NCBI GenBank assembly: GCA_965221655.1
Contig: OZ244906.1
Location: 173,339-237,338 of the forward strand
Length of the DNA: 64,000 bases
DNA from: a bacterium
Lineage (GTDB): Bacteria > UBA8248
Direction of reading: 5' to 3'
Part shown: in pieces, positions 4,177 to 60,662 of the stretch
How the letters are laid out: the number at the start of each line of letters is the position of its first letter
Position numbering within the stretch: position 1 is the stretch's first letter
Notes under the pieces: generated by a model
Seen by the model: the letters and a program-made list of their open reading frames with translations, nothing else
The model's database searches: none
What the model was told of the DNA's origin: nothing
Program-made: the position numbers and the translations under genes

Positions 4177-6084
4177 ATGTCGAAGGTAATCGGAATCGAT
4201 TTGGGCACCACCAACTCGGTCGTGTCGGTCATGGAGGGCGGACAGCCGACGGTGATCGCCAACCAGGAGGGCAACCGCACGACGCCCAGCGTCGTGGCGT
4301 TCACCGACGACGGCGAGAAGCTCGTCGGCCTCGTGGCCAAGCGCCAGGCGGTGACGAACCCCACGCGCACCATCTACTCCGTCAAGCGCTTCATGGGCAG
4401 GCGCTTCGACGAGGTGCCCGAGGAGGCGAGCATCGTCCCCTACGAGGTCGTGAAGTCCGACAACGGCGACGCGCGCATTCGCGTGGACGGGAAAGAACAC
4501 GCTCCGCCCGAGATTTCGGCCAGCGTGCTGCAAAAGCTCAAGCAGGCGGCGGAGGACTACCTGGGCGAGCAGGTGGGCGAGGCGGTCGTCACCGTGCCCG
4601 CTTATTTTAACGACAGCCAGCGCCAGGCGACGAAGGACGCGGGCAAGATTGCCGGTCTCGACGTGCGGCGCATCATCAACGAGCCGACGGCGGCGGCCCT
4701 GGCCTACGGCCTCGACAAGAAGACGGATCAGACGATAGCGGTCTACGACTTCGGCGGCGGCACGTTCGACATTTCCATCCTCGAGGTGGGCGACAACGTC
4801 GTCGAGGTGAAGGCGACGAACGGCGACACCCACCTGGGCGGCGACAACATCGACCAGCGGATCATCGAATGGATGGCCGAGGAGTTCCGGAGCGATCAGG
4901 GCATCGACCTCTCGGGCGACCCCATGGCCCTCCAGCGTCTGCGCGAAGAAGCGGAGAAGGCGAAGATCGAGCTCTCCAGCTCGATGGAGACGACCATCAA
5001 CCTGCCCTTCATCACGGCGGACGCCTCGGGGCCGAAGCACCTCAACCTCAAGCTCACGCGCGCAAAGCTCGAACAACTCACGGGCGAGCTGGTGGAGAAG
5101 ACCCTCGCCCCCTGCCGCCGCGCACTGGACGACGCCAAACTCCAGCCGGGCGAGGTTGACGAGGTGGTGCTGGTGGGCGGCTCGACGCGCATGCCGCTCG
5201 TCCAGGAGACGGTGCAAAAGTTCTTCGGCAAGGAGCCGCACAAGGGCGTCAACCCCGACGAGGTGGTGGCCGTGGGCGCGGGCGTGCAGGGCGGCGTGCT
5301 GGCGGGAGACGTGAAGGACGTGCTCCTGCTCGACGTAACCCCGCTCTCGCTGGGCATCGAGACGCTGGGCGGCGTGTTCACCAAGCTCATCGATCGCAAC
5401 ACGACCATACCGGTCAAGAAGAGCGAGATATTCTCCACGGCGGCGGACAGCCAGCCCTCCGTCGAGGTGCACGTGCTCCAGGGCGAGCGCGAGATGGCGA
5501 CGGGCAACCGCACCCTGGGCAAGTTCCACCTGGTGGGCATTCCGCCCGCACCGCGCGGCGTCCCCCAGATTGAGGTGACCTTCGACATCGACGCCAACGG
5601 CATCGTGAACGTCTCCGCCAAGGACCTGGGCACCGGCAAGGAGCAGGCCATCACCATCACGAGTTCGAGCGGGCTTTCCGAGGAGGAGATCAACAACATG
5701 GTCTCCGAGGCGGACGAGCACGCGGAGGAGGACAAGAAGCGCCGCGAGTCCGTCGAAGCCCGCAACATGGCCGACAGCATGGCCTACAACACCGAGAAGA
5801 CGCTCAAGGAGAACGAGGGCAAGGTTTCGCCCGAGGACAAGAAGGAGATAGAAGAGGCCGTTGCCGCCGTGCGCGCGGTGCTGGCGCGCGAGGACGCGAC
5901 GGTCGAGGAAATCACCGAAGCGCAGTCGAAACTCGAAGCCGCCTCCCACAAGCTCGCACAGGCGATGTACGAGCAGGCGAGCCAGGACGCGGGCGAGGGC
6001 GGCGGCGCGACGAACGGCGCCCCCGACGCGGGAGGCGACGTCGTGGACGCGGAGTTCGAGGAGGTCGACAAGGACAAGCCCTGA
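4177..6084 (+). CDS. dnaK: Molecular chaperone DnaK (Hsp70)
   Basis: [22 protein letters not shown]..., DLGGGTFD and a C-terminal [12 protein letters not shown]-type tail. This is unmistakable Hsp70. Confidence 0.97.
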
Positions 6085-6110
6085 CGACCCGCCCCTGATG
6101 AGGATGCACG

Positions 6111-7055
6111 ATGTCGAAGCGTGATTATTACGAGGTGCTCGGAATCGAGCGCGGCGCCTCGGATGCCGAACTCAAGCGCGCCTTCAAGAGGCTCGCGCGC
6201 AAGTGGCACCCCGACGTGAACCCCGGGGACGCGAACGCCGAGGCGCGCTTCAAGGAGATCAGCGAGGCGTACGCCGTGCTCTCCGAACCCGAAAAGCGTC
6301 GCCGCTACGACGCCATGGGGCACGCGGCCTTCGGCGGCGGCAGCCCCTGGGGCGAGGGGGGTGCGCCCGGGGTGGAGGATATCCTGCGCGAGTTCGGGCT
6401 GGGCGACGTCTTCGGCAACATATTCGGCAGCGCGCGCGGCGCGGGCAGGCGCTACGCGCGGCCCGACGCCCCCCGCCGGGGCCAGGACGTGAACTACTCG
6501 ATGGAGATAGGTTTTGACGATTCGCTCAAGGGTCTCGCCACCACCATCACCGTCCCCAAGGACACCCACGAGAACGGCGCGCTGCAGCGCACGACCGAGC
6601 GCATTCAGGTGAAGATACCGCCCGGCGTCTCGAACGGCTCGCGCATTCGTCTGGCGGGCAAGGGAGAAGCCTCGGCGAACGGGGGGGAGCAGGGGGATCT
6701 CTACATCGTCACCAAGGTGCGCGAACACCCCTTCTTCGAGCGCAAGGGGGACAACCTCTACCTCGAACTTCCCGTCAGCCTCGGCGAGGCGCTGCTGGGT
6801 GCGCGCGTCGAGATCAACACCTTCGAGGGCACGACCAAGATGACGATTCCCCCCGGCACCCAGAACAGACAGACGTTCCGGCTGCCGGGCAAGGGCGCCC
6901 CGCAGCTCAAGGGCGGGGGCAGGGGCGATTTGTTCGTGGCCATCAACGTTCGCCTGCCCGAAGGCATGGACGAGGAGAGCCAGGAGATAGTCCGCGAACT
7001 GGAGCGGCGCAACCCCACCGCACCGCGCGCCAAAATGACGGGCGTGAGCATGTAG
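6111..7055 (+). CDS. cbpA: DnaJ-family co-chaperone without zinc finger (CbpA-like, type II J-protein)
   Basis: J domain ([33 protein letters not shown]) and a G/F-rich linker, then DnaJ C-terminal beta domains. No CxxCxGxG repeats are present. Confidence 0.85.
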
Positions 7056-7106
7056 GTCGCAGGGAAGCGAACGAAAGGCCCCCGACGGGGGGCGGAGGAG
7101 GAGACC

Positions 7107-7517
7107 GTGGCGCGCAGAAGGGCGAGAAGCGGACGCTACACCATCGGCGCAGTGGCGGAGATGTTCGAGGTCCACCAGCAGACGCTGCGTTTCTACGAGC
7201 GCGAGGGCCTCATCGTTCCCGCCCGAAGCGAGGGCAGGACGCGCTATTACTCCGAAGAGGACATCGAGCGTCTCGACGTCATCATGACGCTCACGCGCGA
7301 AATGGGCGTGAACCTGGCGGGCGTGCAGATAATCATCGATCTGCGCGAGAAGCTCGTGAAGGCCCTGGGGCGCCTGGGCGAACTCGAGGAATTGCTCGAA
7401 AGCCGTGCGTTCGAGGACTTGCGCGCGCAGATGGACGACGCGACGCCCGAGATGCAGGCCATGATTCCCGCCCTTTCGGGCAAGCTCGTACGCGCCGCCA
7501 GGAGGAGAACATCGTGA
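7107..7517 (+). CDS. hspR: MerR-family heat-shock transcriptional regulator (HspR/CbpM-like)
   Basis: MerR helix-turn-helix motif [49 protein letters not shown]. The gene sits directly after the cbpA-like gene, as in known cbpA-hspR and cbpA-cbpM pairs. GTG start after GGAGGAGGAG. Confidence 0.75.
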
Positions 7518-8368
7518 GCACGAATTCCATCAAGACGTTCTTGTTGCTGGGTTTGCTGACGGGGCTGATTCTGCTGATAGGGAACCTGGTGGGCGGAACG
7601 GTGGGGCTGGTAATCGCCCTGGTGCTGGCAGTGGGCATCAACGGGTACAGCTACTGGTTTTCGGACCAAATCGTGCTCGCGAGCACCGACGCGCGCGAGG
7701 TGCTCCCCGAGCACGCGCCCGAACTCTACGGCATGGTGGAGGAGCTGGCGCGGCGCGCGCACCTGCCGATGCCGCGCGTCTACGTCATCCCCGAGGAGGC
7801 GCCCAACGCCTTCGCCACCGGCCGCAACCCCGAAAACGCGGCCGTGGCCTTCACCGAGGGCATCCTGCGCGATTTGAACCGCGAGGAGCTCGAGGGCGTG
7901 GCCGCGCATGAGCTCGCCCACATCAAAAACCGCGACATACTGCTTTCCACCGTTGCGGCCTCGCTGGCGGGCGCCATCATGTACATCGCGCAGATGGCGC
8001 AGTTCGCCGCGTTTTTTGGCGCATACGGCAGGGGCGACGATGAGGAAGGCGGGGGCGGCGGACTGCTCGGCATCATTCTCGCCGCCATCGTGGCTCCGGT
8101 TGCGGCGACCCTGCTGCAAATGGCGGTGAGCCGCTCGCGGGAGTATCTCGCCGACGCTACCGGGGCGCGCATCGCCGGCACGCCGGTTGGCCTCGCGAAT
8201 GCCCTGGATCGTCTCGATGCGGCCTCGCGCAGGGAGTACCTCTCCTGTGCGAGCGAGGCGACGGCCCATATGTACATCGTCAACCCGCTCGCGGGCGGGG
8301 GACTGGCGAACCTTTTCAGCACGCACCCGCCGATGGAGGAGCGCATTCGGCGGCTCATGGCGATGTGA
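7514..8368 (+). CDS. htpX: Zinc metalloprotease HtpX (M48 family)
   Basis: [10 protein letters not shown] zinc-binding motif, N-terminal transmembrane helices and a C-terminal HPPMEERI. The GTG start overlaps the hspR stop (GTGA). Confidence 0.9.
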
Positions 8369-8396: not shown

Positions 8397-9089
8397 ATGA
8401 AAGGCGAGAAGGTGGAGGTCAAGACGGAAGGGGACGAAACGCCCCCGACGGAGGAGGAAACTGCCGCCGGGGAGGAGGAGAGGCCGCGCGTCGTCGACAG
8501 GCGGCGGATTCGCGCGGACGGCGAGGCGAGCGAGGAGGCCGACGGAGACGACGCACCTGAGCGGCGCGTGCCCGCCTACGTCGAGCAGTTGCAGGCGAAG
8601 GTCGCCGCGGCCGAGGAGAAGTTTCGGCAATACGTCGAGAAGATCGACAGGGAAACGGCCGAGTTTCGCGCGCGTCAGGAGCGCGAGATGGAGCGGCGCG
8701 CCCGCGAGGTGAAAAAACAGGCGGTGTCGGGCTTTTTGGACATTGCTGATGATCTGGCGCGCGCAACGGCGGCGGCCGAGGGGGGTGCCGCGAACGAGGG
8801 CGCTCTCGAAACCCTGGTGCAGGGTGTGCGGATGATCCAGGGCCGTTTTTTTCAGGAGCTCTCGAATCTGGGGGTGGAGCCCCTGGCGGCAGTGGGTGCG
8901 GCCTTCAACCCCGAGGAGCACGAGGCGGTGCGGGTGGTCGAGGTGAACGAGCAGTCCCGCGACGGCCTCGTGGTCGAGGAGCTCTCCTGCGGCTACAGGC
9001 TGGGTGAGGCGGTTTTGCGGCCCGCGCGCGTCTCGGTGGGCAAGTACGCGAGCGGCTCTGCGCCCCTTGAATCGGGCGGCGGCTCATAG
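8397..9089 (+). CDS. grpE: Nucleotide exchange factor GrpE
   Basis: Acidic N-terminal tail followed by coiled-coil and C-terminal beta domain (...FNPEEHEAV...RLGEAVLRPARVSV). The ATG at 8397 follows GGGAGGAAG. The longer ORF 8187..9089 has a spurious N-terminal extension. Confidence 0.85.
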   Translation: MKGEKVEVKTEGDETPPTEEETAAGEEERPRVVDRRRIRADGEASEEADGDDAPERRVPAYVEQLQAKVAAAEEKFRQYVEKIDRETAEFRARQEREMERRAREVKKQAVSGFLDIADDLARATAAAEGGAANEGALETLVQGVRMIQGRFFQELSNLGVEPLAAVGAAFNPEEHEAVRVVEVNEQSRDGLVVEELSCGYRLGEAVLRPARVSVGKYASGSAPLESGGGS

Positions 9090-9122
9090 TATCTTCGCGT
9101 GTTTCGATTTCCGGGGTAGGGC

Positions 9123-10241
9123 ATGAGCAAGCGTGATTATTACGAAGTGCTGGGCGTAGGGCGCGAGGCGAGCGACGCCGAAATCAAAAAGGCGTATCGC
9201 GTCCTGGCGATGGAGTTGCATCCGGATCGCAACCCGGGCGACGCGAAGGCCGAGGAATCCTTCAAGGAAGCTTCTGAGGCCTACCAGGTGCTGAGCGACC
9301 CCGAGAAGCGCGCGGCCTACGACCGCTTCGGGCACGACGGCCTGCGCGGCATGGGGCACCAGGGGTTCTCGAATTTTGAGGACATCTTCTCCTCATTCGG
9401 CGATATTTTTGGCGATATCTTCGGCGGCGTCTTCTCCGGCGGGCGCGCGCGGCGCGGCGGGCCGCAAAAGGGCCGCGACCTCGCCTACCAGATGGACATG
9501 ACGTTCGAGGAGGCGGCCTCGGGCATCGAGCGCGAGATTGCGTTTGAGCGCTCCGTCGAGTGCGTCTACTGCGGCGGCAGCGGAGCCAAATCCCCCGACG
9601 CCGTGCGCACGTGCAGTGCGTGCGGCGGCAGTGGGCAGATGTCCTACCGCCAGGGGTTCATGACCTATTCCACTACGTGTTCGACCTGTGGGGGAGCGGG
9701 CAGGGAGATTGTGGAACACTGCTCCGAGTGCGAGGGCGCGGGCCGCCGCATGGAGCGGCGAAACGTGAAGGTGCGCATCCCCCCCGGCGTGGACGAGGGG
9801 GCGCGACTCCGCCTCCGCGAGGAGGGAGAAGGAGGGGCCAAGGGCGGCCCTGCGGGCGATTTGTTCGTCGTGGTCTCGCTGCTCGAGCACGAAGAATTCG
9901 AGCGCAACGGGACGGACGTGGCGAGCCGGGTGTCCGTCACCTTCTCCCAGGCGGCGCTCGGCGACACGGTGCGCGTGCGAACGCTGTATGGGGAATCGGA
10001 ACTCGAAATCCCCAGGGGGGTGCAATCCTCCGAGGTGTTGCGCCTCAGGGGCGAGGGTTTTGCGCGCCTCGACGGGCGCGGGCGCGGCGACCACATGTTT
10101 TTGGTGCAGGTGTGCACGCCGAGCAAACTCACCTCCGAGGAGGAGCGCCTGTTCGGCGAGTTGGCGGAAATCGAGCGGGACAAGGCGGAGAAGAACGGAA
10201 AAAAGGGCGTTCTCGGCAAACTGGGTTCTCTTTGGGGATGA
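9123..10241 (+). CDS. dnaJ: Chaperone DnaJ (type I, with four CxxCxGxG zinc-finger repeats)
   Basis: J domain, G/F region, then [24 protein letters not shown] and CSECEGAG repeats, followed by C-terminal domains. Confidence 0.95.
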
Positions 10242-15289: not shown

Positions 15290-15922
15290 TTAGAGCAGCC
15301 CCGCCACGTATTTTCTGTCCGAGAAGGCGAATTCGCGTATCCACTTCGCCAGTGCGCGGTAGAGGTGCGTTTGGGCGTCTTCTTCCACGCCCGCGGTATA
15401 GAGGGGCATCCACCGCATGAGGTGTTGATCCATAAACTCCGCGGCGGCGGAGAGTTTTTCGCGCGCGGAGTCTGCGCTCTCCTCCCAGGCCAGGGCTTCT
15501 TCGTCCGCGAGACAGGCGAGGAATTCGAGCTCCACGCTCAGATGGTCCATCGCCAGAATGCTGGGGTGGTCGAGACCCGCGCTGCCCCGCCCGGGGTTGT
15601 AGCCGTTCGCCCGGTAGAAGTCGGCCACTGCGTCGGTCGTCTTCGCGTTCAGGTGGCCGCTCTCGTCGATGAGCGCCGCTTCGTAGGGGGGCGAGGAGAG
15701 GACGAAGAGGTTCGTGAAGTCCACCCGCATCTCCCGGAGCGAGGTTTCTGAAACCGCAAAACCCTCGGGAAGCAGGAAGGGGTAGTTCTCACCCAGGAAC
15801 GCGGCGAGTTCCGCGTCTGGCGGATCGAGCATCGCGCAGGCTTGGACCCGGTAGAGTTGCGCGCGCAGCCTGGCCTGTTCGGCGCATTGCGCGGCAGAGG
15901 GGCGCCGCCTCCAGGGGTTCAT
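15290..15922 (-). CDS. TorD/DmsD-family molybdoenzyme maturation chaperone
   Basis: ...YEAALIDESGHLNAKTTDAVADFYRANGY...LSVELEFLACLADEE... The ATG overlaps the stop of the upstream oxidoreductase gene (ATGA). The remainder of the 791-aa ORF 15290..17665 is antisense artefact. Confidence 0.7.
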   Translation of the reverse strand: MNPWRRRPSAAQCAEQARLRAQLYRVQACAMLDPPDAELAAFLGENYPFLLPEGFAVSETSLREMRVDFTNLFVLSSPPYEAALIDESGHLNAKTTDAVADFYRANGYNPGRGSAGLDHPSILAMDHLSVELEFLACLADEEALAWEESADSAREKLSAAAEFMDQHLMRWMPLYTAGVEEDAQTHLYRALAKWIREFAFSDRKYVAGLL

Positions 15923-18795
15923 TCGGAGATGGTGTAGGCCTCGGCCCGCGGCTTGTTCGGCCGCGCGAACCACAGGGGCCGCCGCAGGTTGTCGGGGCCG
16001 GGAGCGGGCCGGGTCATCTCGAGCCACTGCTTGTAGTGCGCAAAGCTCTTCTTCGTGTCCACGCTGATGTCGCCGTAGCGATCCGCAGCCCCCGCCCTTG
16101 TTACGCGCACCTTCTGGTGCCAGCAGTGCATTCCGCTCACCGGGTCGGGGTTGACCGGGAAGGTGAGGTTCTGGTTCACGCCCACCTCGCGCCACCAGAT
16201 GCGCTCGGTGTCGGGGTCGTCGCTGCGGAAGGGCTGGACGCCGTGCACCTGGCGCATGGCGTATTCGCCCTCGGCCTTCTCCTCGATGCGCACGACGGCG
16301 GAGGCGATTCTGGGCGCACCCCGATCCTCGCTGAGGCGCCAGCGCCCCAGGTGGTGGGCCATGGCGACGATGCCGGGCCGCACCCCCTCGGTAACCCAGC
16401 ACCTGGTGACGAAGTGGCCTATCGCCGTCTCGACCTTTGCCAAATCGCCCGTGCGCAGCCCGAGGCGCTTCGCGTCGTCGGTGTGTATCCACAGCGGGTT
16501 GTTGTGGGTGATCTCGTAGAGCCACTTTACCGCCGAGCGCGTGTGGATGAGGGTGGCGAGGCGGTAGTTCGGCAACAGGTCGAACTCGTTCTCGTCGCGG
16601 TTCATGTCGCGCCAGTAGACGTGGGTCTTCATGTATTGGGGCGTGGCCGCCTCGGGCCAGTTCCAGGCTTCCATGGTGGGGCTGTAGAACTCGAGCTTTT
16701 TGGACGGCGTCGGGAAGCCCACCCTCGCCTTGCCCTTGCTCATGTTGCCGATGAGGGCGCCTTCTTTCCAGACGCCGCCTGTCGCCTCGTCCACCTCGGC
16801 GCCTTCCATCTGCTCGCCCGATACCTCGTGCATGTGGGGTTCGTAGACGTTTTCCTGCACGGCGAAAACCCCGTACTTGCGCATGTAATCGAGCGGCGTG
16901 AGCCCCTCCTTGGCGGCGGCTTCGGGAAGGCCCGGCACGCCGTTTTCGAACATCCATTGGTAATACTCGGTAACGGTAATCTTCTCGCCCGGCCTGTAGG
17001 GACTCTCGAAATACCGGCGGATGCCGAGCGAGCCGTCGGGGTCGATGCGCCAGGAGAGCTCGATGTGGAGTTCGTCCTCCTCCCAGACCTCGCCGGGGTT
17101 CGTCTCGCGCGAGGTCTCGAAGGTCTCTCCCATTCTCTCGCGCAGGGAGCGGAGGACAGGCTGGCGGAAGCCCACCCACTTCGTGGGGTGCGTCTCCTGG
17201 CTCTGGTTGTCGTGGCGCTCGGTCGCGTTGCCCATGGGCAGAATGTAGTCGGCGAACCAGGCCGTCTCGCTCCAGGTGGGGGTGAGGGCCACGTGGCAGC
17301 CGATCTTGTCGTGATCCTTGAGCATGTCCACCCACATGAAGCCGTCGGGGTTCGTCCACACCGGGTTGTAGACCCGCGTGAAGTAGACGTCGACGCTGTG
17401 GCCCTTGTCCTTGACGAGGTGGGGCATCAAAAAGCTCATCTCGAAAAACGCGAGGGGGTATTCCCGCGGGAAGAGGAGCTCGTTCCACTCCTCGGGGCCG
17501 GGTGCGGGGTTGGGGTGTTTGGGCACGAACTTGTGCGTGCTCGCCAGGTGGGTGCCGCCCACGGTGCCCACCGCCCCGGTGAGGGAGGGGAGGAAGTGCA
17601 GGCATCGCCCCACCTGCCAGCCGTGGAGGTTGCCCGTGGCGGCCGCGCGCCAGACGTGGACGCACAGACGGCTGCCCGCGCGGGCGACGACCTGGGCGAC
17701 CTCGGCGATGAGGTCTGCGTCGACGCCCGTCTCCTCGGCCGCGTAGGCGAAGGTGAACTCCGCGTATTCTTCCTTGAGCTTCTCGATAAAATTCTCGAAC
17801 GTGGCCTCTTCATCCGGATGGAGGGCGCGCATGTATTCGCCCCAGTTCATCCACTCCTCGACGAACTGCGCGTCGAACTGACCCGTCTCCAGCAGGTAGC
17901 GGACGATGGCGAGCAGAATCGCGCTCTCGGTTCCGCTGTAGGCGGGGAGCCAGTAGTCGGCCTTCGCCGCCGTGTTCGAGAGCCTGGGGTCGATGACGAT
18001 GAGTTTCGCCCCGCTGGTTTGCGCCTCGATGATGCGCTGGGCCGAGGGGTTGTAGTAGTGGCCGGTGTCTAGATGGCTGCTGATGAGCAAAATGGCGTCG
18101 GCGTTGGTGAAATCAGGCGAGGGCCTGTCCGAGCCGTTCCACAGGAACTGGCCGATGCGCGCGGAGGAGCTGCACACGTTCGTGTGGCTGTTGTGGCCGT
18201 CCACGCCCCAGCCCGCCAGCGTGCGGAACATGTAGCCGTCCTCGCCGGGGCGCCCCACGTGGTAGATGACGCCGTTGCGGCGGTCCGCGAGTATCGCCTC
18301 GCGGATGCGGCCTGCGATGTCGTCGAGCGCCTCGTCCCAGCTCACGCGCTCCCACTGGCCGCCGCCGCGTTCGCCCACCCTCTTGAGGGGATGGAAGATG
18401 CGGTCGGGGTCGTAGACCTGGTTGAGCGTAACCCAGCCCTTCGCGCAGTTGCGCCCGCGCGAGGCGGGGTGGAGCGGGTTGCCCTCGATTTTGCGGATCT
18501 TCATGTCGTCCTTGTCGACGTAGGCCAAGAGCCCGCAGCCCGCCTCGCAGTTGAAGCACAGCGTGGGGACGAGGGCGTAGTTGCGCGCCACGCGCCGGGG
18601 CCACTCGGTGCTCTCGTATTCCGTCCAGTGGTCCCACTTGTCCGGGCTCGGATAGGAGACCAGCGCGCCGTTCGTGTTCGTGTAGTCGAGCTGACCCGCC
18701 GGGGCCGGGGGCGGGGCTTTGGCCAGCAGGTCGGGACGACCCAGCGAGGCGACGTCGCGCGCTCCCTTGCCGACTTGGAGATGGCTTGTGCTCAT
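15919..18795 (-). CDS. Molybdopterin oxidoreductase catalytic subunit (MopB/DMSO-reductase superfamily), no Tat signal
   Basis: 958 aa. N-terminal [4Fe-4S] motif CFNCEAGCGLL...C. MopB domain signatures are present throughout. The N-terminus MSTSHLQVGKGARD... lacks an RRxFLK motif. Confidence 0.9.
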   Translation of the reverse strand: MSTSHLQVGKGARDVASLGRPDLLAKAPPPAPAGQLDYTNTNGALVSYPSPDKWDHWTEYESTEWPRRVARNYALVPTLCFNCEAGCGLLAYVDKDDMKIRKIEGNPLHPASRGRNCAKGWVTLNQVYDPDRIFHPLKRVGERGGGQWERVSWDEALDDIAGRIREAILADRRNGVIYHVGRPGEDGYMFRTLAGWGVDGHNSHTNVCSSSARIGQFLWNGSDRPSPDFTNADAILLISSHLDTGHYYNPSAQRIIEAQTSGAKLIVIDPRLSNTAAKADYWLPAYSGTESAILLAIVRYLLETGQFDAQFVEEWMNWGEYMRALHPDEEATFENFIEKLKEEYAEFTFAYAAEETGVDADLIAEVAQVVARAGSRLCVHVWRAAATGNLHGWQVGRCLHFLPSLTGAVGTVGGTHLASTHKFVPKHPNPAPGPEEWNELLFPREYPLAFFEMSFLMPHLVKDKGHSVDVYFTRVYNPVWTNPDGFMWVDMLKDHDKIGCHVALTPTWSETAWFADYILPMGNATERHDNQSQETHPTKWVGFRQPVLRSLRERMGETFETSRETNPGEVWEEDELHIELSWRIDPDGSLGIRRYFESPYRPGEKITVTEYYQWMFENGVPGLPEAAAKEGLTPLDYMRKYGVFAVQENVYEPHMHEVSGEQMEGAEVDEATGGVWKEGALIGNMSKGKARVGFPTPSKKLEFYSPTMEAWNWPEAATPQYMKTHVYWRDMNRDENEFDLLPNYRLATLIHTRSAVKWLYEITHNNPLWIHTDDAKRLGLRTGDLAKVETAIGHFVTRCWVTEGVRPGIVAMAHHLGRWRLSEDRGAPRIASAVVRIEEKAEGEYAMRQVHGVQPFRSDDPDTERIWWREVGVNQNLTFPVNPDPVSGMHCWHQKVRVTRAGAADRYGDISVDTKKSFAHYKQWLEMTRPAPGPDNLRRPLWFARPNKPRAEAYTISE

Positions 18796-18813
18796 GTTCT
18801 CAAAACCCCCCGG

Positions 18814-20334
18814 TTACGAAAGGGGAACGGCCTGGCCGGCCTTCACCCAGATTTTGTCCCACACGTAGGCGCCCGCGGTGGCGAGCACCCCCGCCAGCAC
18901 CGCGCCGTAGCCGCCGAAGCCGAAGAGCCACAACAGGGCGAGGGGCAAAACGCATCCCGCGCCGACGGCGCCCCTCCAGAAATCATCGCTGAACGGCCCG
19001 GTGCGCAGCAGGTCTATCGCCCGCTCGTGGGCCACCGAGCCGAAGCGGTGCACCAGCACCGAGAACACCAGAATCGCCAGGTGCAGCACGAGGAGAACGG
19101 CCAGCAGCCCGCCCAGCACGTTCAGGGCGGCGGCCTGCTGCGCGACGGGGAAGAGCGTGGCGAACAGAATCAGTATGGCGACGCCCTTCAGGCCCGACTG
19201 CACGCCGACGTCGAGCGTGTTCTCGCTGCCCTTCCACAAATCCCGCGCCGACGCCTGGGCGAAGAAAAAGCCCGTGTATATCGAGGAGAGAACCCCCATG
19301 GCGATGGTGGGCCACAGGATGAGGCGCAACAGGCCCGTCGCCCCCGCCATCGCCCCCAGCAGCCACAGGAGGGTGAGGACGCCGTTGAGGGCGATGAACC
19401 ACGTGCCCCACGCCATCCAGCTGCCCCAGTTCGAGCGCAGAAGAATGTAGTAGAACCGCTCGGGCCGCTTGAGATCGGCGATGAGCACCGCTCCCGTAAC
19501 CGCGAGGAGGATGCCGCTCAGCGCGGGCATCCAGAACGAGAACAAAGAGCTCGTGAACCCGAACGCCCACAGAAAGAGGCTCACGACCAGAAGGCCCGTG
19601 CTCGCTCCCTTGGTCATGAGGTAGGTGATGATTTTCGTCTCCCACGGCACGTGGTGAAAGGTGTCGTAGACGGTGCGGCTCTCGCCCGGCTTGTTCTCCC
19701 ACTCGGGGACAGCGTCCTCGCGCTGGGCGTCCATCTCGCCTTGCTTGTAGATGCCCGACTGGCCCGCCTCGGTGGGGTCGAGCAACTGGCGGCTGCCCTC
19801 CAGGTAGTAGATGTTGGGCGCCGTGTTGTACTCGGGCTTGCGCACGTGGTAGGGGCGCTGGGTGGTGAGGCGCGAGATTTTCGAGTCCGCGTCCTCTACG
19901 TCGCCGAACACGCGGCACTGCGTGGGGCAGACGACCACGCAGGCGGGCTCGAGGCCGGCCTCGAGGCGGTTCGCGCAGAAGTTGCACTTCTCGGCCGTCA
20001 GCGTGTCGGGGTCGATGAAGAGCTGGTCGTAGGGACACGCCGCGATGCAGGACTTACACCCGATGCACCAGTCCGCATCCAGATCGACGATGCCGTCGCT
20101 GCGGCGGAAAAGCGCCTTGGTCGGGCAGATGTTCTGGCAGGGCGCGTCGTCGCACTGGTTGCACAAGACGGGCAGGAACTCCCGCCGCGTGCGGGGGAAC
20201 GAACCCTTTTCGACTTCTTTTACCCAGCATCGCCAGACGCCGATGGGGATTTCGTGCTCGGATTTACAGGCGATCGTGCAGGCGTGGCAACCGATGCAGG
20301 ATTCCAGGTCGATTGCCATGGCGTATTTGGTCAT
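18814..20334 (-). CDS. 4x[4Fe-4S] ferredoxin-type subunit (PsrB/NrfC-like) fused to an NrfD/PsrC-like integral membrane anchor
   Basis: N-terminal half carries CIGCHACTIAC, CNQCDDAPC, CIGCKSCIAAC and CNFC...C cluster motifs. The C-terminal ~250 aa is hydrophobic with multiple predicted helices. Ribosome-binding site GAGGA. Confidence 0.85.
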   Translation of the reverse strand: MTKYAMAIDLESCIGCHACTIACKSEHEIPIGVWRCWVKEVEKGSFPRTRREFLPVLCNQCDDAPCQNICPTKALFRRSDGIVDLDADWCIGCKSCIAACPYDQLFIDPDTLTAEKCNFCANRLEAGLEPACVVVCPTQCRVFGDVEDADSKISRLTTQRPYHVRKPEYNTAPNIYYLEGSRQLLDPTEAGQSGIYKQGEMDAQREDAVPEWENKPGESRTVYDTFHHVPWETKIITYLMTKGASTGLLVVSLFLWAFGFTSSLFSFWMPALSGILLAVTGAVLIADLKRPERFYYILLRSNWGSWMAWGTWFIALNGVLTLLWLLGAMAGATGLLRLILWPTIAMGVLSSIYTGFFFAQASARDLWKGSENTLDVGVQSGLKGVAILILFATLFPVAQQAAALNVLGGLLAVLLVLHLAILVFSVLVHRFGSVAHERAIDLLRTGPFSDDFWRGAVGAGCVLPLALLWLFGFGGYGAVLAGVLATAGAYVWDKIWVKAGQAVPLS

Positions 20335-20467
20335 GCCGTATCCTCGGCTTGTGATGAAGCGCGTTTGCTGTAACCTGACTCTGGTAGCCCATTACTAGAA
20401 CTTTGCGGTGGGCGTGTCAACGCGCGGGGGCTGCAAACCGCCTGCGCGCTCTCGAGGGAGGCTGAGC

Positions 20468-22875: not shown

Positions 22876-24102
22876 CTATACCGTGAGGAGCCTATGCGTT
22901 GGCGCCGTCATTCTCTCGATGGGCAGCCCGTGGGTGCAGGAGCCCGCGCACGCCTGGTGGGTGCAGTCCAGGCAAGCCCCCGCGCCTGCCCCCAGCAGGG
23001 AGTACTCCGCCCGGGCGAGGCGCAGGTCGCGATAGTCCCGCGCGTACATGCGGGTGCGCAGCACGTCGGCGATGGGCACGTTTTCCGGACACGCCCCCGC
23101 GCAGTCGTTGCACGCATGGAGGCAGTAGGAGGCGCCGTTCAGCTGTGCGTATTTCTTGAGAATCGGCAGGTCGCGGCGCGAGGTGCGCTTCCAGCCCGAA
23201 CCGCCCAGGAATTCGGTGATGCGCTCTTTGCTCGTCATCGAGATGACGAGGGCGTCCACGTTGGGGTTCGACAGCACCCAGCGGAAGGCGGCCTGCGCGT
23301 AGGTGGCGCCCCCCTGCTCGTAGGGCCGCATGTCGTTGAGGCGCGCGCCCATGAGCGTCTTCATGGCGACGACGCCGATGCCCGCGGCCTTCGCCCGCTC
23401 GAGCGTGCGGGGGAGTGTGGGGAAGCGGGCGATGAAGTCGAAGCCCCGCGTAAAGCGCTGGTAGAAGGCCGGGTCCTGCCCGAAGTTGTAGGCCACGAGG
23501 AACACGTCCACCGCGTTGTGATCGACACAATACTCGAGGCACTCGATGAGGTTGCCCGCGTGGCCAGACATGCCTGAGTACCTGATTTTCCCCTGCTTCT
23601 TCGCGAGGGCCACGAACTCGCTCCACTCGGGGTTCTTCATCCTGTCCACGTCGTTCACGGCGTGGTTGAAGTAGACGTCCACGTAATCCGTCTGGAGCCT
23701 GCGCAGGCTTTCCTCGAGAGAGCGCATCATCGTCGCCTTGTCCTCGCCCGCGCTCGCGTAGGTTTTCGAGATCAGATAGACCTTGTGGCGCTTGCCCTTC
23801 AGAGCGTTGCCGATGGTGACTTCCGACTCGCCGCCCGTGTAGCTCTCCGCCGTGTCGAAGTAGTTGATACCCGAGTCGAGGGCGTGAAGAACGAGGTCCT
23901 CCTCGCCCGCGCCCAGCCTGCTGCCGCCGAAGGAGACGTCGGACATCGTGATGTCCGTCTTGCCCAGGCGCACGTAGCGGCGCACGCGGTTTTGCGCAGC
24001 ACCTGCAGTGCGGGCCAGGGGCAGCAACCCCGCGCCGACGCCCGCGAAGGCGCTTTTTTTGAGAAAATCGCGTCTCGGCAACAGTTTCGAGCGTTCGCTC
24101 AT
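22876..24102 (-). CDS. Tat-secreted aldo/keto reductase with C-terminal Cys-rich (Fe-S-like) extension
   Basis: Tat motif SKLLPRRDFLKKSAFAGVG. AKR core (GINYFDTAESYTGGESE...). C-terminal CLHACNDCAGACP and CLDCTHQACAGSC motifs. True start is M20 of the listed ORF, after GGGGAGG. Confidence 0.8.
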   Translation of the reverse strand: MSERSKLLPRRDFLKKSAFAGVGAGLLPLARTAGAAQNRVRRYVRLGKTDITMSDVSFGGSRLGAGEEDLVLHALDSGINYFDTAESYTGGESEVTIGNALKGKRHKVYLISKTYASAGEDKATMMRSLEESLRRLQTDYVDVYFNHAVNDVDRMKNPEWSEFVALAKKQGKIRYSGMSGHAGNLIECLEYCVDHNAVDVFLVAYNFGQDPAFYQRFTRGFDFIARFPTLPRTLERAKAAGIGVVAMKTLMGARLNDMRPYEQGGATYAQAAFRWVLSNPNVDALVISMTSKERITEFLGGSGWKRTSRRDLPILKKYAQLNGASYCLHACNDCAGACPENVPIADVLRTRMYARDYRDLRLARAEYSLLGAGAGACLDCTHQACAGSCTHGLPIERMTAPTHRLLTV

Positions 24103-24258
24103 CGTCCATCCTCCCCGGCCAGGTGAACGTTCCCCGCGCGCTTGCAAACGGCGCTGCATCCGATCTCAACCCATTTTCACCATCGGGTCAATAGGCAAAA
24201 TTCTCGTTTGCCGCTGCGTGCCCAAAGCGAGGAGGGGAGCCCGCCGCCACGCGCGCAC

Positions 24259-36841: not shown

Positions 36842-36860
36842 CGCGTACATGGGAGGAAGA

Positions 36861-38441
36861 ATGGTGAAGGATATATCCCCGGTTGAACTCAAGAGCCTGA
36901 TGGAAAGCGGCGGCGCGTACGCGGTGCTCGACGTGCGCGACCCGATGGAATTTCACGAAAAACAAATATTCATGACGACGAACGCCCCGCGCTCCGCACT
37001 GGAGTTTCTCGCCCCCCGCCTCGTGCCCGTACGCGCGACGCGCGTGGTGGTGGTGGACGAGGGCGGCCCCCGCGCCGGGCGCGCGGCGGCCCTGCTCGCA
37101 GAGAGCGGCTACGCGGACGTCTCGGTGCTCACAGGCGGCCTGCGCGCCTGGGAGGAGGCGGGCTTCGCGACGGTATCGGGCACCAACGTGCCGAGCAAGG
37201 ACTTCGGCGAGCGGGTGCACGTGGAAAACGCCGTGCCCGAGATTACGGCGGAAGACCTCTTCGCACTCATCGAGGCCGACCCGCCGCCGCGCATATTCGA
37301 CACGCGCACCGAGGTGGAGTTCGAGCGCTTCTGCGTCCCCACCGGGCGCAACCTGCCCGGCGGGGAGCTGATTCTCCACGCCTGGGATTTGGCCCAGGAC
37401 ACCGAGACGCCTCTCATCATCAACTGCGCGGGCCGCACCCGCAGCATCATCGGCACGCAGGCGCTCCACCGTCTGGGCGTCACCCAGGCGCGCGCTCTCA
37501 AAAACGGCGGCATGGGCATCATGCTGGCCGGGCTGCCGCTGGCAGAAGGCGTGGCGAGCGAGATTCCCGCACCCTCCGCGCAAAGCCGCGCCCACGGGGA
37601 GACGCTCGGCGCACAAATTGCGGAGGAGGAGGGAATTCCCTTCGTCTCGCCCGAAGAGCTGCGCGCACTCATCGACGGGGCGGAGAACGAGACCCTCTAT
37701 CTGCTCGACGTGCGCCTGGCGCCCGAATTCTCAGGCGGCCATCTGCCGGGGGCGATCTCCATCCCCGGCGGGCAGGCCGCCCAGCGCACGGATGAGGTAA
37801 TCGCCGTGCGCGCGGGACGGGTGGTGACCTATTGCGACCAGAACGCGCGCGGGATTATGGCGGCCTACTGGCTGCGGCAGATGGGGCTCGACGTAAGCGT
37901 CCTGCGCGGGGGGCTCGCCGCGTGGACGCAAGCCGGCGGCGCACTGGAGAAATCCGACGCCGCCGCCTCGGGCGAAAGCCCCGCCCAGGCCGCGGGCGTC
38001 CTGGGACTGGAAGAAGCCATGCGCGCGGCGCGCGCGTATACGGCACAAGAAACGGCGGAGTGCGGAGTCGTGCTCGACGTGGATACGAGCGCCTCCTACG
38101 AGGGCGGCCACCTGCCGGGCTCAAGCTGGGTGTCGAGGGGGCTCATAGAAGAAGAAGCGCCCGCACAAGCGGGCGACGCACCCCTGGTCTGCGTCTGCGA
38201 GGATGGGCGCAAGTCCGCCCTGAGCGCGCACGCACTCGCGCGGCTGGGCCACGACGCGGGCTACCTCGCGGGCGGCAAGGCGGCCTGGCGGGCGGCGGGC
38301 CGCACACTGCAAACCGGGCGCGCAGGGCTGGGCGACAAACCGAAGGACGTGCAGCTCAAGCCCTACGACATCGGGCGCGGCGCCATGGAGGCCTACCTCA
38401 CCTGGGAGGAGAACCTGGGCCACAAGTACGAGCGCAAGTAG
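36861..38441 (+). CDS. Multi-domain rhodanese (sulfurtransferase) protein, about four tandem rhodanese domains
   Basis: Repeated ...YxxGHIPGA... and CxxGxR active-site loops (NCAGRTRS, YCDQNARG, VCEDGRKS). Confidence 0.85.
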   Translation: MVKDISPVELKSLMESGGAYAVLDVRDPMEFHEKQIFMTTNAPRSALEFLAPRLVPVRATRVVVVDEGGPRAGRAAALLAESGYADVSVLTGGLRAWEEAGFATVSGTNVPSKDFGERVHVENAVPEITAEDLFALIEADPPPRIFDTRTEVEFERFCVPTGRNLPGGELILHAWDLAQDTETPLIINCAGRTRSIIGTQALHRLGVTQARALKNGGMGIMLAGLPLAEGVASEIPAPSAQSRAHGETLGAQIAEEEGIPFVSPEELRALIDGAENETLYLLDVRLAPEFSGGHLPGAISIPGGQAAQRTDEVIAVRAGRVVTYCDQNARGIMAAYWLRQMGLDVSVLRGGLAAWTQAGGALEKSDAAASGESPAQAAGVLGLEEAMRAARAYTAQETAECGVVLDVDTSASYEGGHLPGSSWVSRGLIEEEAPAQAGDAPLVCVCEDGRKSALSAHALARLGHDAGYLAGGKAAWRAAGRTLQTGRAGLGDKPKDVQLKPYDIGRGAMEAYLTWEENLGHKYERK

Positions 38442-38447: not shown

Positions 38448-38804
38448 CTACGCGGAGGGTGTGTCCGCTTTTGCCGCTCCTTGTGCGCGGGATTCCGCGT
38501 TGTACGCGCGCACCTGTCTGGGAATGGTGAATAAATCCACGAATCGCCACATGGTGTAGGGCAAAAAGGCGATGAAGATGATTGCTTTCGTCTGCACGCC
38601 CATGTCGGGCAGGGATATCGAGGTGAGAAAGCCGACAAAAAACGCGGCGGAATAAAGCAGGGCTGAGCGCGGTTTTTCCAGATAGAAGTGGTGTGCCCCC
38701 AGCCAGTCCAAGGCGAGCCACAGCACATAAGCCAAGGCGATCGATTTTTCGCGCGGGCCGGAGCCGCCTCTGCTGGAGACGTGGGGCTTGCCTGCGTTCA
38801 TCAT
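38448..38804 (-). CDS. TM2-domain membrane protein (paralogue 4, shorter and diverged)
   Basis: ...WLALDWLGAHHFYLEKPRSALLY... TM2 signature (G-x-H-x-FYLG) and shared C-terminal motif WRFVDLFTIPRQVRAYN. Confidence 0.7.
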   Translation of the reverse strand: MMNAGKPHVSSRGGSGPREKSIALAYVLWLALDWLGAHHFYLEKPRSALLYSAAFFVGFLTSISLPDMGVQTKAIIFIAFLPYTMWRFVDLFTIPRQVRAYNAESRAQGAAKADTPSA

Positions 38805-39277: not shown

Positions 39278-39321
39278 TTTTTGTTTCTCCTCTCAGAAGC
39301 GGGTCTGCCTGTTTTCGCTCA

Positions 39322-39798: not shown

Positions 39799-39851
39799 TT
39801 TTTGTTTCTCCTCTCAGAAGCGGGGCAGGCGGGTCTGCCTGTTTTCGCTCA

Positions 39852-44349: not shown

Positions 44350-44495
44350 GGCGTCTCCCCCCGTTTCGGTGCGGACGTGCGCTTTACACGGCATGTTCGG
44401 CATTCTACCATAGGCATTATTCCCTTTGCGGGCAAATGCCGTTCGGTGCCGTCGCCGCTTCGGTCTCCATTCGAATTTCGGGAGGAAAACAGAGA

Positions 44496-45656: not shown

Positions 45657-45676
45657 GCATGCAGTACCGGAACCAC

Positions 45677-57098: not shown

Positions 57099-57101
57099 TC
57101 C

Positions 57102-60643: not shown

Positions 60644-60662
60644 ACCTCATGGATGGGGACAC

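What the first reader, a model, noticed from the sequence alone, without database searches (positions are those of the whole stretch)
15290..20334. Three-gene molybdoenzyme module with fused FeS/NrfD subunit and Tat-less catalytic subunit
The gene order is (4x[4Fe-4S] ferredoxin fused to an NrfD/PsrC-type membrane anchor), then MopB catalytic subunit, then TorD-like chaperone, with the chaperone start overlapping the catalytic stop. Neither the catalytic nor the FeS subunit has a recognisable Tat or Sec signal. That predicts a cytoplasm-facing Mo site anchored to the membrane by the fused subunit. This is the reverse of classic periplasmic Psr/Phs/Ttr/Dms complexes and different from ACIII, where MopB-like and FeS domains are fused. 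The catalytic subunit has an unusually long (about 75-aa) Pro/Ala-rich N-terminal extension before the first cysteine motif. The substrate is not inferable.
Basis: partly seen in the sequence, partly recalled or inferred. Interest (0 to 1): 0.5.

Follow-up and report, generated by a model that had tools for sequence, protein, structure and literature searches.

The report
Cytoplasm-facing sulfite dehydrogenase-like molybdoenzyme, fused anchor
The three genes are real. They encode a membrane-bound molybdenum enzyme that faces the cell interior and most likely oxidises toxic sulfite to sulfate, but this fused layout is widespread and was already described in green sulfur bacteria, so it is an ordinary member of a known kind.

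Summary
On the minus strand lie a fused 4x[4Fe-4S]/NrfD gene (18814-20334), a 958-aa MopB gene (15919-18795) and a TorD/NarJ-like gene (15290-15922). The TorD-like ATG overlaps the MopB stop. None of the three has a Tat or Sec signal, and both large ORFs are already maximal. Cytoplasmic orientation is supported: lysine/arginine bias in the NrfD loops is the reverse of that in periplasm-facing NrfD proteins.

The fused-anchor + MopB pair occurs in more than 590 species-level genomes across many bacterial phyla and in haloarchaea, including Chlorobium, Rhodococcus jostii RHA1 and Thermomicrobium roseum. In green sulfur bacteria this two-gene unit is known as PSRLC3, inferred to oxidise sulfite and treated as the SoeABC counterpart. 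Basal Nitrospinota are already reported to carry soeA.

The substrate is inferable. Relatives sit next to persulfide dioxygenase-rhodanese, SQR-like, DsrE, TusA, TauE, SulP and cysteine dioxygenase genes.

Only the TorD-like gene and the first ~46 residues of MopB are particular to this lineage. I could not compare the protein directly with a characterised SoeA, and found no biochemical study of the fused form.

The parts
18814..20334 (-). Gene for the fused electron-transfer/anchor subunit (506 aa): PsrB-like four-cluster ferredoxin domain, linker, and 8-helix NrfD/PsrC-like quinone-interacting membrane domain
   Evidence: ORF; Pfam Fer4_11 and NrfD above cutoffs; one ORF in 72 of 74 related loci; all 120 best homologues carry both domains
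19780..20334 (-). FeS domain (aa 1-185), 16 Cys in four [4Fe-4S] motifs, no signal peptide (first motif at residue 13)
   Evidence: Cys motifs; profile vs PDB: 2vpw_B PsrB residues 1-182, E 3e-61; NCBIfam best hit TtrB 184 bits, below cutoff 416
19660..19779 (-). Charged, non-hydrophobic linker (aa 186-225) between the FeS and membrane domains; low-confidence in the model
   Evidence: Sequence; pLDDT below 50 for 180-226
18817..19659 (-). NrfD/PsrC-like domain (aa 226-506), 8 transmembrane helices, predicted N-in/C-in, i.e. inverted relative to periplasm-facing NrfD proteins
   Evidence: AF2 helices 231-502; Foldseek 2vpw_C TM 0.70 and ActC chains; K+R bias
15919..18795 (-). Gene for the Mo/W-bisPGD catalytic subunit (MopB, 958 aa), no Tat signal, predicted cytoplasmic
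   Evidence: Pfam; NCBIfam: no family reaches its cutoff (best PhsA 198 vs 694); more than 8000 homologous clusters; closest solved folds ArrA, acetylene hydratase and PsrA at about 20% identity
18658..18795 (-). Clade-specific N-terminal tail of MopB (aa 1-46), predicted disordered, contains the short Pro/Ala run; candidate binding peptide for the TorD-like protein (inference)
   Evidence: Present and conserved only in the 77-90% identical relatives; pLDDT below 50
18559..18657 (-). Family-wide conserved segment before the cluster motif (aa 47-79, 'SYPxPxxWD..YES..WP.RR'), modelled as a beta-hairpin; holds the RR that is not a Tat motif
   Evidence: Invariant columns P49, P51, W54, D55, E61, S62, W65, P66; strands 57-64 and 67-79
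18445..18558 (-). FS0 [4Fe-4S] binding motif C80-x2-C83-x3-C87-x29-C117
   Evidence: Molybdop_Fe4S4 Pfam hit 75-128; all four Cys invariant
18172..18174 (-). Codon of Cys208, predicted Mo ligand (followed by Ser, not His)
   Evidence: Cys208 aligns with the single Cys in the corresponding segments of PsrA (2vpw_A) and ArrA (6cz7_A); that these Cys are the Mo ligands is from my own knowledge. Invariant in 42 sequences
15290..15922 (-). TorD/NarJ-family maturation chaperone gene (210 aa), start overlaps the MopB stop (ATGA); lineage-specific accessory
   Evidence: Pfam PF02613 63.6 bits; overlap; found in 6 of the roughly 80 species-level loci; homologous to the TorD genes of the unfused Sulfurovum (E 6e-15) and Azoarcus (E 3e-7) clusters
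20391..20420 (-). Possible promoter (TTGACA, 17 nt, TAGTAAT) upstream of the fused gene; GAGGA lies 6 nt before the ATG. Weak: sequence reading only
   Evidence: the consensus scan did not call it

Best explanation
The locus encodes a quinone-reducing, membrane-bound sulfite dehydrogenase of the SoeABC / PSRLC3 type, with SoeB-like and SoeC-like parts fused into one polypeptide.

Proposed mechanism:
1. Sulfite made in the cytoplasm is oxidised to sulfate at a Mo-bisPGD centre ligated by Cys208 of the 958-aa subunit.
2. The two electrons pass through the FS0 cluster (C80/C83/C87/C117).
3. They continue through the four [4Fe-4S] clusters of the fused subunit's N-terminal domain.
4. [quoted passage not shown] That domain sits in the membrane upside-down compared with Psr/Nrf/Dms anchors, so the redox chain and the quinone site both face the cytoplasm.
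5. The TorD-like protein keeps apo-MopB competent for cofactor insertion. It probably binds the clade-specific N-terminal tail, as NarJ does with Tat-less NarG.

Shown here: the domain content, the cofactor-binding motifs, the absence of export signals, the inverted charge bias, the conservation of the fused pair, and the sulfur-gene neighbourhoods of relatives.

Inferred: sulfite as substrate, the direction of electron flow, the position of the quinone site, and the chaperone's target.
For: Architecture and orientation:
- Domains and motifs.
- No signals and maximal ORFs.
- K+R bias is 12 vs 2 in the window, 14 vs 0 in Rhodococcus RHA1 and 17 vs 0 in Chlorobium N1. Periplasm-facing controls give 6 vs 13 (E. 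coli NrfD) and 3 vs 10 (Azoarcus, Tat-bearing MopB).

Conservation:
- FeS and NrfD are in one ORF directly upstream of MopB in 72 of 74 loci.
- More than 593 species-level genomes hold a relative.

Sulfur context of relatives:
- Persulfide dioxygenase-like MBL+rhodanese in 17 loci, SulP sulfate permease in 14, TauE in 10, SQR-like in 7, DsrE-like in 5.
- TauE plus cysteine dioxygenase in Acidobacteria.
- DsrE-TusA-fused-MopB flanked by MBL hydrolases and ArsR regulators on Rhodococcus jostii RHA1 pRHL3.
- MopB-TauE-DsrE-TusA in Chlorobium.
- A metal-sensitive (CsoR-type) regulator upstream in Thermomicrobium roseum.

Literature:
- PSRLC3 is '2 genes' and an 'alternative sulfite-oxidizing system' in green sulfur bacteria (PMC5473276, PMC6338057, PMC9324843).
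- SoeABC is said to be universally present in purple and green sulfur bacteria (PMC8232776, restating Dahl 2013).
- SoeAB lie on the N-side and SoeC is expected to be inverted (PMC8076601).
- soeA/soeB are reported in basal Nitrospinota (PMC10203281). The closest named relatives of the window genes are Nitrospinota MAGs.
Against: - I could not align the protein with a characterised SoeA (A. vinosum D3RNN8/ADC63403.1, A. aeolicus aq_1234). No reference sequence was reachable, the afdb50 library was unavailable, and the representative search gave no names.
- No NCBIfam model reaches its cutoff. The best partial hits are PhsA and TtrB.
- The gene order (BC-A) and the fusion differ from soeA-soeB-soeC.
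- A census of SoeC listed only Proteobacteria, Clostridia and Aquificae (PMC8076601), so the fused family may be a separate clade.
- I found no biochemical or genetic study of the fused form.
- In the window itself the module sits among housekeeping genes. The nearest sulfur-related genes (a 4x rhodanese at 36.8 kb and a TauE at 45.8 kb) are 17-26 kb away.
- The FeS domain was modelled poorly, so its docking onto the NrfD face is not shown.
Confidence: 0.68

Rival explanations
1. It has the same cytoplasm-facing architecture but acts on a different sulfur compound. For example it could be a thiosulfate, polysulfide/persulfide or tetrathionate oxidoreductase working with the quinone pool, in either direction.
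For: The best NCBIfam partial matches are PhsA (198 bits) and TtrB (184 bits). The closest solved sequence relative is PsrA. The DsrE, TusA and rhodanese neighbours handle sulfane sulfur, not sulfite. Persulfide dioxygenase-rhodanese fusions also yield thiosulfate (own knowledge).
Against: All those matches are far below the family cutoffs. TauE, SulP and cysteine dioxygenase neighbours fit sulfite/sulfate better. The literature assigns the Chlorobium orthologues to sulfite oxidation (PMC6338057, PMC9324843). Known Psr/Phs/Ttr enzymes are Tat-exported (own knowledge).
Confidence: 0.15
2. In this Nitrospinota-like lineage the enzyme has taken on a new, non-sulfur substrate. The added TorD-like gene, the new N-terminal tail and the loss of sulfur-gene neighbours would be signs of that change.
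For: No sulfur genes flank the module here or in the 90% identical relatives. The TorD-like gene and the 46-residue tail are specific to this clade.
Against: Identity to Chlorobium, Rhodococcus and Acidobacteria orthologues is 56-65% over the full length, with several hundred invariant positions including the Mo-ligand region. Basal Nitrospinota are reported to combine rDsr with soeA (PMC10203281). TorD genes also accompany the more distant unfused clusters, so the chaperone looks ancestral rather than new.
Confidence: 0.08
3. It is a formate:quinone oxidoreductase, as some older database names ('formate dehydrogenase') for homologues suggest.
For: One homologue is named 'formate dehydrogenase' by NCBI (P0025). 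The NCBIfam Fdh-alpha model gives a partial hit of 176 bits.
Against: The hit is far below the cutoff of 666. The predicted Mo ligand Cys208 is followed by Ser-Ser-Ser, not by the catalytic His that follows (Se)Cys in formate dehydrogenases (own knowledge). No formate-related neighbours recur.
Confidence: 0.03
4. It is a conventional periplasm-facing Psr/Phs-like reductase, exported through an unrecognised signal or by piggy-backing on another protein.
For: Relatives at 33% identity (Azoarcus pAZKH) have a Tat signal on MopB, separate FeS and NrfD genes and a TorD gene. TorD-family proteins usually serve Tat substrates (own knowledge).
Against: The ORFs cannot be extended. No RR motif with a hydrophobic region is present. 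The FeS domain is covalently joined to an NrfD domain whose charge bias puts that end in the cytoplasm, opposite to the periplasm-facing controls. N-termini across about 70 species start directly at the first cluster motif.
Confidence: 0.03

Closest known systems
PSRLC3 (polysulfide-reductase-like complex 3) of green sulfur bacteria
   Same: A two-gene unit of a PsrA-like Tat-less MopB plus one gene for the FeS and NrfD parts. The Chlorobium sp. N1 and Chlorobium MAG orthologues are 56-57% identical over residues ~21-958 of the 958-residue query, with the fused gene directly upstream. Inferred to oxidise sulfite in the cytoplasm (PMC5473276, PMC6338057, PMC9324843).
   Different: Chlorobium has no TorD-like gene. 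TauE, DsrE-like and TusA genes follow MopB there. Its N-terminal tail is a different sequence ('KPTLIESLAEK..'). PSRLC3 itself has not been characterised biochemically, as far as I found.
SoeABC sulfite:quinone oxidoreductase (Allochromatium vinosum genetics; Aquifex aeolicus biochemistry)
   Same: A MopB with an N-terminal FeS cluster, a four-cluster FeS protein and an NrfD/PsrC anchor, none with a Tat signal. The peripheral subunits lie on the N-side and the anchor is expected to be inverted (PMC8076601, PMC5114278). It matches the sulfur-oxidation context of relatives here.
   Different: SoeABC has three separate genes in the order A-B-C. Here B and C are fused and precede A. Sequence relatedness to a characterised SoeA was not measured here.
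PsrABC polysulfide reductase of Thermus thermophilus (PDB 2VPW)
   Same: The best solved sequence relative for all parts: PsrA E 6e-38, PsrB E 3e-61 over its whole length, PsrC fold TM 0.70. The equivalent Cys is conserved.
   Different: Psr is Tat-exported, faces the periplasm, has separate subunits and reduces polysulfide with quinol. MopB identity is only about 20-25%, and the window protein is about 200 residues longer.
NarGHI with NarJ (respiratory nitrate reductase)
   Same: A cytoplasm-facing CISM enzyme without Tat export that still needs a TorD/NarJ-family chaperone binding the N-terminal tail of the catalytic subunit (own knowledge). This is the functional analogy for the TorD-like gene here.
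   Different: Nar has a different anchor (dihaem NarI, not NrfD), an Asp Mo ligand, and belongs to a different MopB clade (narG hit only 26 bits).
Unfused B-C-A-TorD clusters (Sulfurovum mangrovi plasmid; Azoarcus sp. KH32C pAZKH)
   Same: The same gene order as here (FeS, NrfD, MopB, TorD). MopB is 38% and 33% identical. The TorD genes are homologous to the window's. Sulfurovum MopB also lacks a Tat signal and shares the conserved pre-cluster segment.
   Different: FeS and NrfD are separate genes. Azoarcus MopB has a clear Tat signal (TRRTFLK) and so faces the periplasm. Their functions are unknown.

Membership tests
MopB / complex iron-sulfur molybdoenzyme catalytic subunits | Molybdop_Fe4S4, Molybdopterin and Molydop_binding domains | tested here: met
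   All three Pfam domains are above their gathering scores.
MopB / complex iron-sulfur molybdoenzyme catalytic subunits | N-terminal four-Cys FS0 motif and a Mo-ligating residue at the conserved position | tested here: met
   C80/C83/C87/C117. Cys208 aligns with the single Cys in the corresponding segments of PsrA and ArrA; that this Cys is the Mo ligand is from my own knowledge. All are invariant.
Four-cluster FeS subunits (PsrB/NrfC/DmsB type) | Four [4Fe-4S] Cys motifs and full-length similarity to PsrB | tested here: met
   16 Cys in four motifs. Profile vs 2vpw_B residues 1-182 of 195, E 3e-61.
NrfD/PsrC membrane anchors | NrfD profile match and an 8-helix, two four-helix-bundle fold without haem ligands | tested here: met
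   Pfam NrfD 54.6 bits vs cutoff 25.8. Eight confident helices. Foldseek 2vpw_C TM 0.70, probability 1.00.
PSRLC3 of green sulfur bacteria | Two-gene unit of a PsrA-like subunit plus a PsrB/PsrC-like gene, as found in Chlorobiaceae genomes | tested here: met
   Chlorobium loci L069, L081 and L085 hold the fused ORF (517-535 aa) directly upstream of a MopB 56-57% identical to the window's. '2 genes encoding PSRLC3' (PMC5473276). That these Chlorobium genes are the ones named PSRLC3 is inferred from the architecture, not from locus tags.
PSRLC3 of green sulfur bacteria | No export signal on the catalytic subunit (cytoplasmic) | tested here: met
SoeABC sulfite:quinone oxidoreductase | No Tat/Sec signal on the A and B parts; peripheral subunits on the cytoplasmic side; anchor inverted | tested here: met
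   No signals. K+R bias is opposite to the periplasm-facing NrfD controls. This is a prediction, not an experiment.
SoeABC sulfite:quinone oxidoreductase | Catalytic subunit groups with characterised SoeA (A. vinosum D3RNN8, A. aeolicus aq_1234) in a MopB phylogeny | not testable with these tools
   No SoeA reference sequence could be obtained: no NCBIfam model, afdb50 unavailable, no names. Only literature equivalence is available (PMC8232776, PMC9324843, PMC10203281).
SoeABC sulfite:quinone oxidoreductase | Three separate subunits encoded as soeA-soeB-soeC | tested here: not met
   The B-like and C-like parts are one ORF and precede A.
SoeABC sulfite:quinone oxidoreductase | Sulfite-dependent quinone reduction | not testable with these tools
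   Needs enzymology. Only neighbourhood evidence is available.
TorD/NarJ redox-enzyme maturation proteins | PF02613 profile match | tested here: met
   63.6 bits vs cutoff 22.2. NCBIfam hits (DMSO_red_II_cha, TorD) are all below their cutoffs.
TorD/NarJ redox-enzyme maturation proteins | Binds the N-terminal peptide of its cognate MopB | not testable with these tools
   Only co-occurrence of the gene with the clade-specific tail is seen.
Tat-exported Psr/Phs/Ttr/Arr/Dms complexes | Twin-arginine signal on the catalytic (or FeS) subunit | tested here: not met
   No such motif is present and the ORFs cannot be extended. A Tat signal is easily seen in the Azoarcus relative and in the window's own aldo/keto reductase.
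Alternative complex III (ActB) | MopB-like and FeS domains fused in one polypeptide, with multihaem subunits | tested here: not met
   MopB and FeS are separate genes and FeS is fused to NrfD instead. No cytochrome genes are adjacent.

The most novel reading that the evidence does not exclude
The fused family may be a distinct, never-characterised sister clade of proteobacterial SoeABC. It would be the main cytoplasmic sulfite-detoxifying or energy-conserving enzyme of many non-proteobacterial phyla (Acidobacteriota, Chloroflexota, Bacteroidota, Gemmatimonadota, Planctomycetota, Actinomycetota, haloarchaea). It is missed by current curated models and censuses. The covalent FeS-NrfD link offers a direct route to test whether NrfD anchors can work upside-down. 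The Nitrospinota-type version, with its TorD-like gene and extra N-terminal tail, would preserve an intermediate of the periplasm-to-cytoplasm flip.
Probability: 0.3. Interest if true: 0.45.

Novelty: new member of a known kind. Interest (0 to 1): 0.22.

Why it matters
As a discovery it matters little. The architecture and its likely role have been in the green-sulfur-bacteria and SoeABC literature since about 2008-2013, and the window copy is one of thousands.

Three practical points are worth recording:
- The family is very widespread. More than 590 species-level genomes carry it, and 1045 50%-identity clusters score E<=1e-30.
- It still receives only generic names ('molybdopterin-dependent oxidoreductase', '4Fe-4S dicluster domain-containing protein'). 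No NCBIfam model reaches its cutoff. Sulfite-oxidising capacity in soil and sediment phyla is therefore probably under-counted.
- The fusion fixes the FeS domain and the NrfD N-terminus on the same side. With the reversed charge bias, this is clean sequence-level support for the proposed inverted orientation of Soe-type anchors. Cultured carriers (Rhodococcus jostii RHA1, Thermomicrobium roseum, Chlorobium, Natrinema) make that testable.

Tried and rejected
- Direct comparison with a characterised SoeA failed. NCBIfam has no Soe model that hits. The afdb50 structure library was not installed. The exhaustive representative search returns no names, and ten full-length representatives at 33-58% identity carried only generic names.
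- tblastn on plasmids found no classical soeABC. The Caballeronia and Rhizobium partial hits turned out to be unrelated cytoplasmic MopBs.
- Gregersen et al. 2011 (PSRLC3) is not in the paper library.
- The AlphaFold model of the fused subunit gave a confident membrane domain but an unusable FeS domain (pLDDT below 50), so docking of the FeS domain on the NrfD face could not be examined.
- phmmer of the NrfD domain against PDB sequences found nothing. Only fold comparison worked.
- The promoter/terminator scan gave nothing above the shuffled expectation.
- I considered and rejected the RR at MopB residues 67-68 as a hidden Tat motif.
- I considered whether the 'FqoABC' group of Calisto and Pereira is this family. 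From my own knowledge it is more likely PSRLC1 (three separate subunits, present in C. tepidum). This is left unresolved.


Full report
**What is in the sequence**

On the minus strand of 15290-20334 there are three tightly packed ORFs.

The first (18814-20334, 506 aa) has a four-cluster ferredoxin domain. It carries 16 Cys in four motifs, the first starting at residue 13. Pfam scores it as Fer4_11 at 85 bits. A charged 40-residue linker follows, then an NrfD domain (Pfam 54.6 bits against a cutoff of 25.8). A profile of the family matches the whole of Thermus PsrB (2vpw_B, residues 1-182, E 3e-61). The AlphaFold model of the membrane part is confident and has eight helices. It superposes on PsrC (2vpw_C, TM 0.70) and on ActC chains.

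The second ORF starts 18 nt downstream (15919-18795, 958 aa). It has the three MopB domains and the FS0 motif C80/C83/C87/C117. Cys208 aligns with the single Cys in the corresponding segments of PsrA and ArrA; from my own knowledge that Cys is their Mo ligand.

The third ORF (15290-15922, 210 aa) is a TorD/NarJ-family protein (PF02613, 63.6 bits). Its ATG overlaps the MopB stop as ATGA.

**Export signals and orientation**

Both large ORFs already begin at the first start codon after an in-frame stop, so no longer N-terminus is possible.

MopB has no hydrophobic stretch. Its only RR (residues 67-68) lies 12 residues before the first cluster Cys, in a family-conserved segment that the model folds as a beta-hairpin. 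That is not a Tat signal.

The organism does use canonical Tat signals. The aldo/keto reductase at 22876-24159 begins ...LLPRRDFLKKSAFAGVGAGLL.

For the membrane domain I counted Lys+Arg in the loops.
- In the window protein the loops on the side of the N-terminus, where the FeS domain is attached, hold 12, and the other side holds 2.
- The mean over 36 family members is 11.7 against 1.8.
- Rhodococcus gives 14 vs 0 and Chlorobium 17 vs 0.
- Two anchors of periplasm-facing systems give the opposite bias. E. coli NrfD scores 6 vs 13. The NrfD of an Azoarcus cluster whose MopB has a TRRTFLK signal scores 3 vs 10.

By the positive-inside rule the fused protein is N-in/C-in. The FeS domain and MopB are then cytoplasmic, and the NrfD domain is inverted relative to the classical ones. 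This is the orientation that Calisto and Pereira expected for SoeC (PMC8076601).

**How common it is**

The MopB protein has more than 8000 homologous 90%-identity clusters. The best is 90% identical and lies in the same gene order and the same housekeeping neighbourhood. An exhaustive search gives 1045 50%-identity representatives at E<=1e-30.

They come from Nitrospinota, Acidobacteriota, Chloroflexota, Bacteroidota, Chlorobiaceae, Gemmatimonadota, Planctomycetota, Methylomirabilota, Binatia, Calditrichota, Actinomycetota and others.

In 72 of 74 loci with enough upstream sequence, the FeS and NrfD parts are one ORF directly upstream of MopB. That ORF starts straight at 'MxYGFxID..CIGCHAC'. 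All 120 best homologues of the fused subunit carry both domains.

Cultured carriers include:
- Thermomicrobium roseum DSM 5159 (57% identical),
- Rhodococcus jostii RHA1 plasmid pRHL3 (56%),
- several haloarchaea (about 50%),
- Chlorobium sp. N1 and Flavilitoribacter nigricans.

**What is conserved and what is lineage-specific**

The segment 47-79 before the cluster motif is conserved throughout. The tail in front of it is variable in length and sequence. Relatives have 36 to about 107 residues before the first Cys. Bacteroidota and Chlorobi share a 'KPSFIEKIAEKLGLIPNLH' motif. The window's first ~46 residues are shared only with the 77-90% identical relatives and are modelled as disordered.

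A TorD-like ORF was detected in only 6 of the roughly 80 species-level loci, even with iterated searching.

Other lineages have a different third gene:
- Mrp/NBP35 in Rhodococcus and Natrinema,
- TauE in Chlorobium,
- a GAF histidine kinase in Acidobacteria.

The window's TorD-like protein is homologous to the TorD genes of more distant, unfused FeS-NrfD-MopB-TorD clusters in Sulfurovum (MopB 38% identical, no Tat signal) and Azoarcus (33%, Tat signal). The chaperone therefore looks like an ancestral partner kept in this lineage. The real unit is a two-gene core plus a variable third gene.

**Substrate**

The window itself gives little. The module sits among queA, HU, an aminotransferase, rpoZ, dnaJ/grpE and lipid-synthesis genes.

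Relatives are more informative. De novo clustering of flanking ORFs followed by Pfam shows:
- a metallo-beta-lactamase plus double rhodanese protein (persulfide dioxygenase type) in 17 loci from at least six phyla,
- SulP sulfate permease in 14,
- the TauE/SafE sulfite-exporter family in 10,
- an SQR-like flavoprotein in 7,
- DsrE-like proteins in 5.

Acidobacterial loci add cysteine dioxygenase. Rhodococcus pRHL3 has DsrE-TusA-fused subunit-MopB flanked by MBL hydrolases and ArsR regulators. Chlorobium has MopB-TauE-DsrE-TusA. T. roseum has a metal-sensitive (CsoR-type) regulator directly upstream.

These are the genes that make sulfite in the cytoplasm or move sulfite and sulfate. Sulfite oxidation to sulfate is the reading that fits them all.

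Formate is unlikely because Cys208 is followed by Ser rather than the catalytic His of formate dehydrogenases (the His rule is from my own knowledge).

**Comparison with what is known**

In green sulfur bacteria a two-gene 'polysulfide-reductase-like complex 3' is described as an alternative sulfite-oxidising system. The sources are PMC5473276 ('2 genes encoding PSRLC3'), PMC6338057 and PMC9324843, citing Frigaard and Bryant 2008 and Gregersen et al. 2011. The Chlorobium loci found here have exactly that layout.

The Dahl et al. 2013 conclusion, as restated in PMC8232776, is that SoeABC genes are universally present in purple and green sulfur bacteria. This equates PSRLC3 with SoeABC.

SoeABC is the accepted cytoplasm-facing MopB/FeS/NrfD sulfite:quinone oxidoreductase (PMC8076601, PMC5114278). 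Basal Nitrospinota are reported to encode soeA and soeB alongside rDsr (PMC10203281). The nearest named relatives of the window genes are Nitrospinota MAGs.

So the architecture is not the reverse of everything known. It is the fused variant of a known cytoplasm-facing class.

**What remains open**

- I could not align the protein with a characterised SoeA. Whether the fused family is nested in SoeA or is a sister clade is unknown.
- The published SoeC census lists only Proteobacteria, Clostridia and Aquificae (PMC8076601), which hints that the fused family was not counted there.
- I found no biochemistry on the fused form.
- The closest solved structures are only about 20% identical (ArrA, acetylene hydratase, PsrA).

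**Verdict**

This is a real, well-formed operon and an ordinary member of a very large, already recognised family. Its most likely function is cytoplasmic sulfite:quinone oxidoreductase (confidence about 0.7). The lineage-specific features, a TorD-like chaperone and an extra N-terminal tail that fits a NarJ/NarG-like maturation step, are minor variations. Interest is low. The residual value is the annotation gap and the topological argument for inverted NrfD anchors.

Noticed in passing
window 51000-64000: Base composition drops from GC 0.63-0.70 to 0.54-0.57, and the third-position GC of called ORFs falls from about 0.87 to about 0.63 from the ORF at 51029 onward. This may be a foreign island or a chimeric assembly join.
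   Followed up: no
window 40363-47453: There is a second, smaller MopB (42094-44403, minus strand, 769 aa). It has no Molybdop_Fe4S4 hit and no NCBIfam model reaches its cutoff. It is flanked by RraA-like, cyclase, amidohydrolase_2, a TauE/SafE-family permease (45770-46522) and an SDR. This may be a cytoplasmic molybdoenzyme of unknown substrate.
   Followed up: partly
window 36849-38441 (+): A 530-aa protein made of four rhodanese domains is the nearest sulfur-transfer gene to the module, about 17 kb away.
   Followed up: partly
window 38448-40346 (-): Four tandem paralogous small genes each carry a TM2 domain; three are 158-164 aa and nearly identical at their N-termini.
   Followed up: partly
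window 22876-24159 (-): An aldo/keto reductase has a textbook twin-arginine signal (RRDFLKKSAFAGVGAGLL) and a Cys-rich C-terminus. It was used as an internal positive control for Tat motifs.
   Followed up: partly
L090 (Rhodococcus jostii RHA1 pRHL3) 8811-9980; L094 (Natrinema halophilum) 8936-10096: In Rhodococcus and haloarchaea the gene overlapping the MopB stop is an Mrp/NBP35 FeS-carrier ATPase instead of a TorD-like chaperone (43% identical between the two). Different lineages have recruited different maturation factors.
   Followed up: partly
L089 (Sulfurovum mangrovi plasmid) 4968-8154: The MopB of the unfused, Tat-less FeS-NrfD-MopB-TorD cluster is split over two reading frames and is not annotated in the record. 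This is either a frameshift/pseudogene or a sequencing error.
   Followed up: no
literature, PMC8076601: The tentatively named 'FqoABC' group of NrfD complexes (Actinobacteria, 88% of Chlorobi, Chloroflexi, Crenarchaeota, Deltaproteobacteria) has a taxon spread resembling that of the fused family here. Whether the two overlap was not resolved.
   Followed up: no
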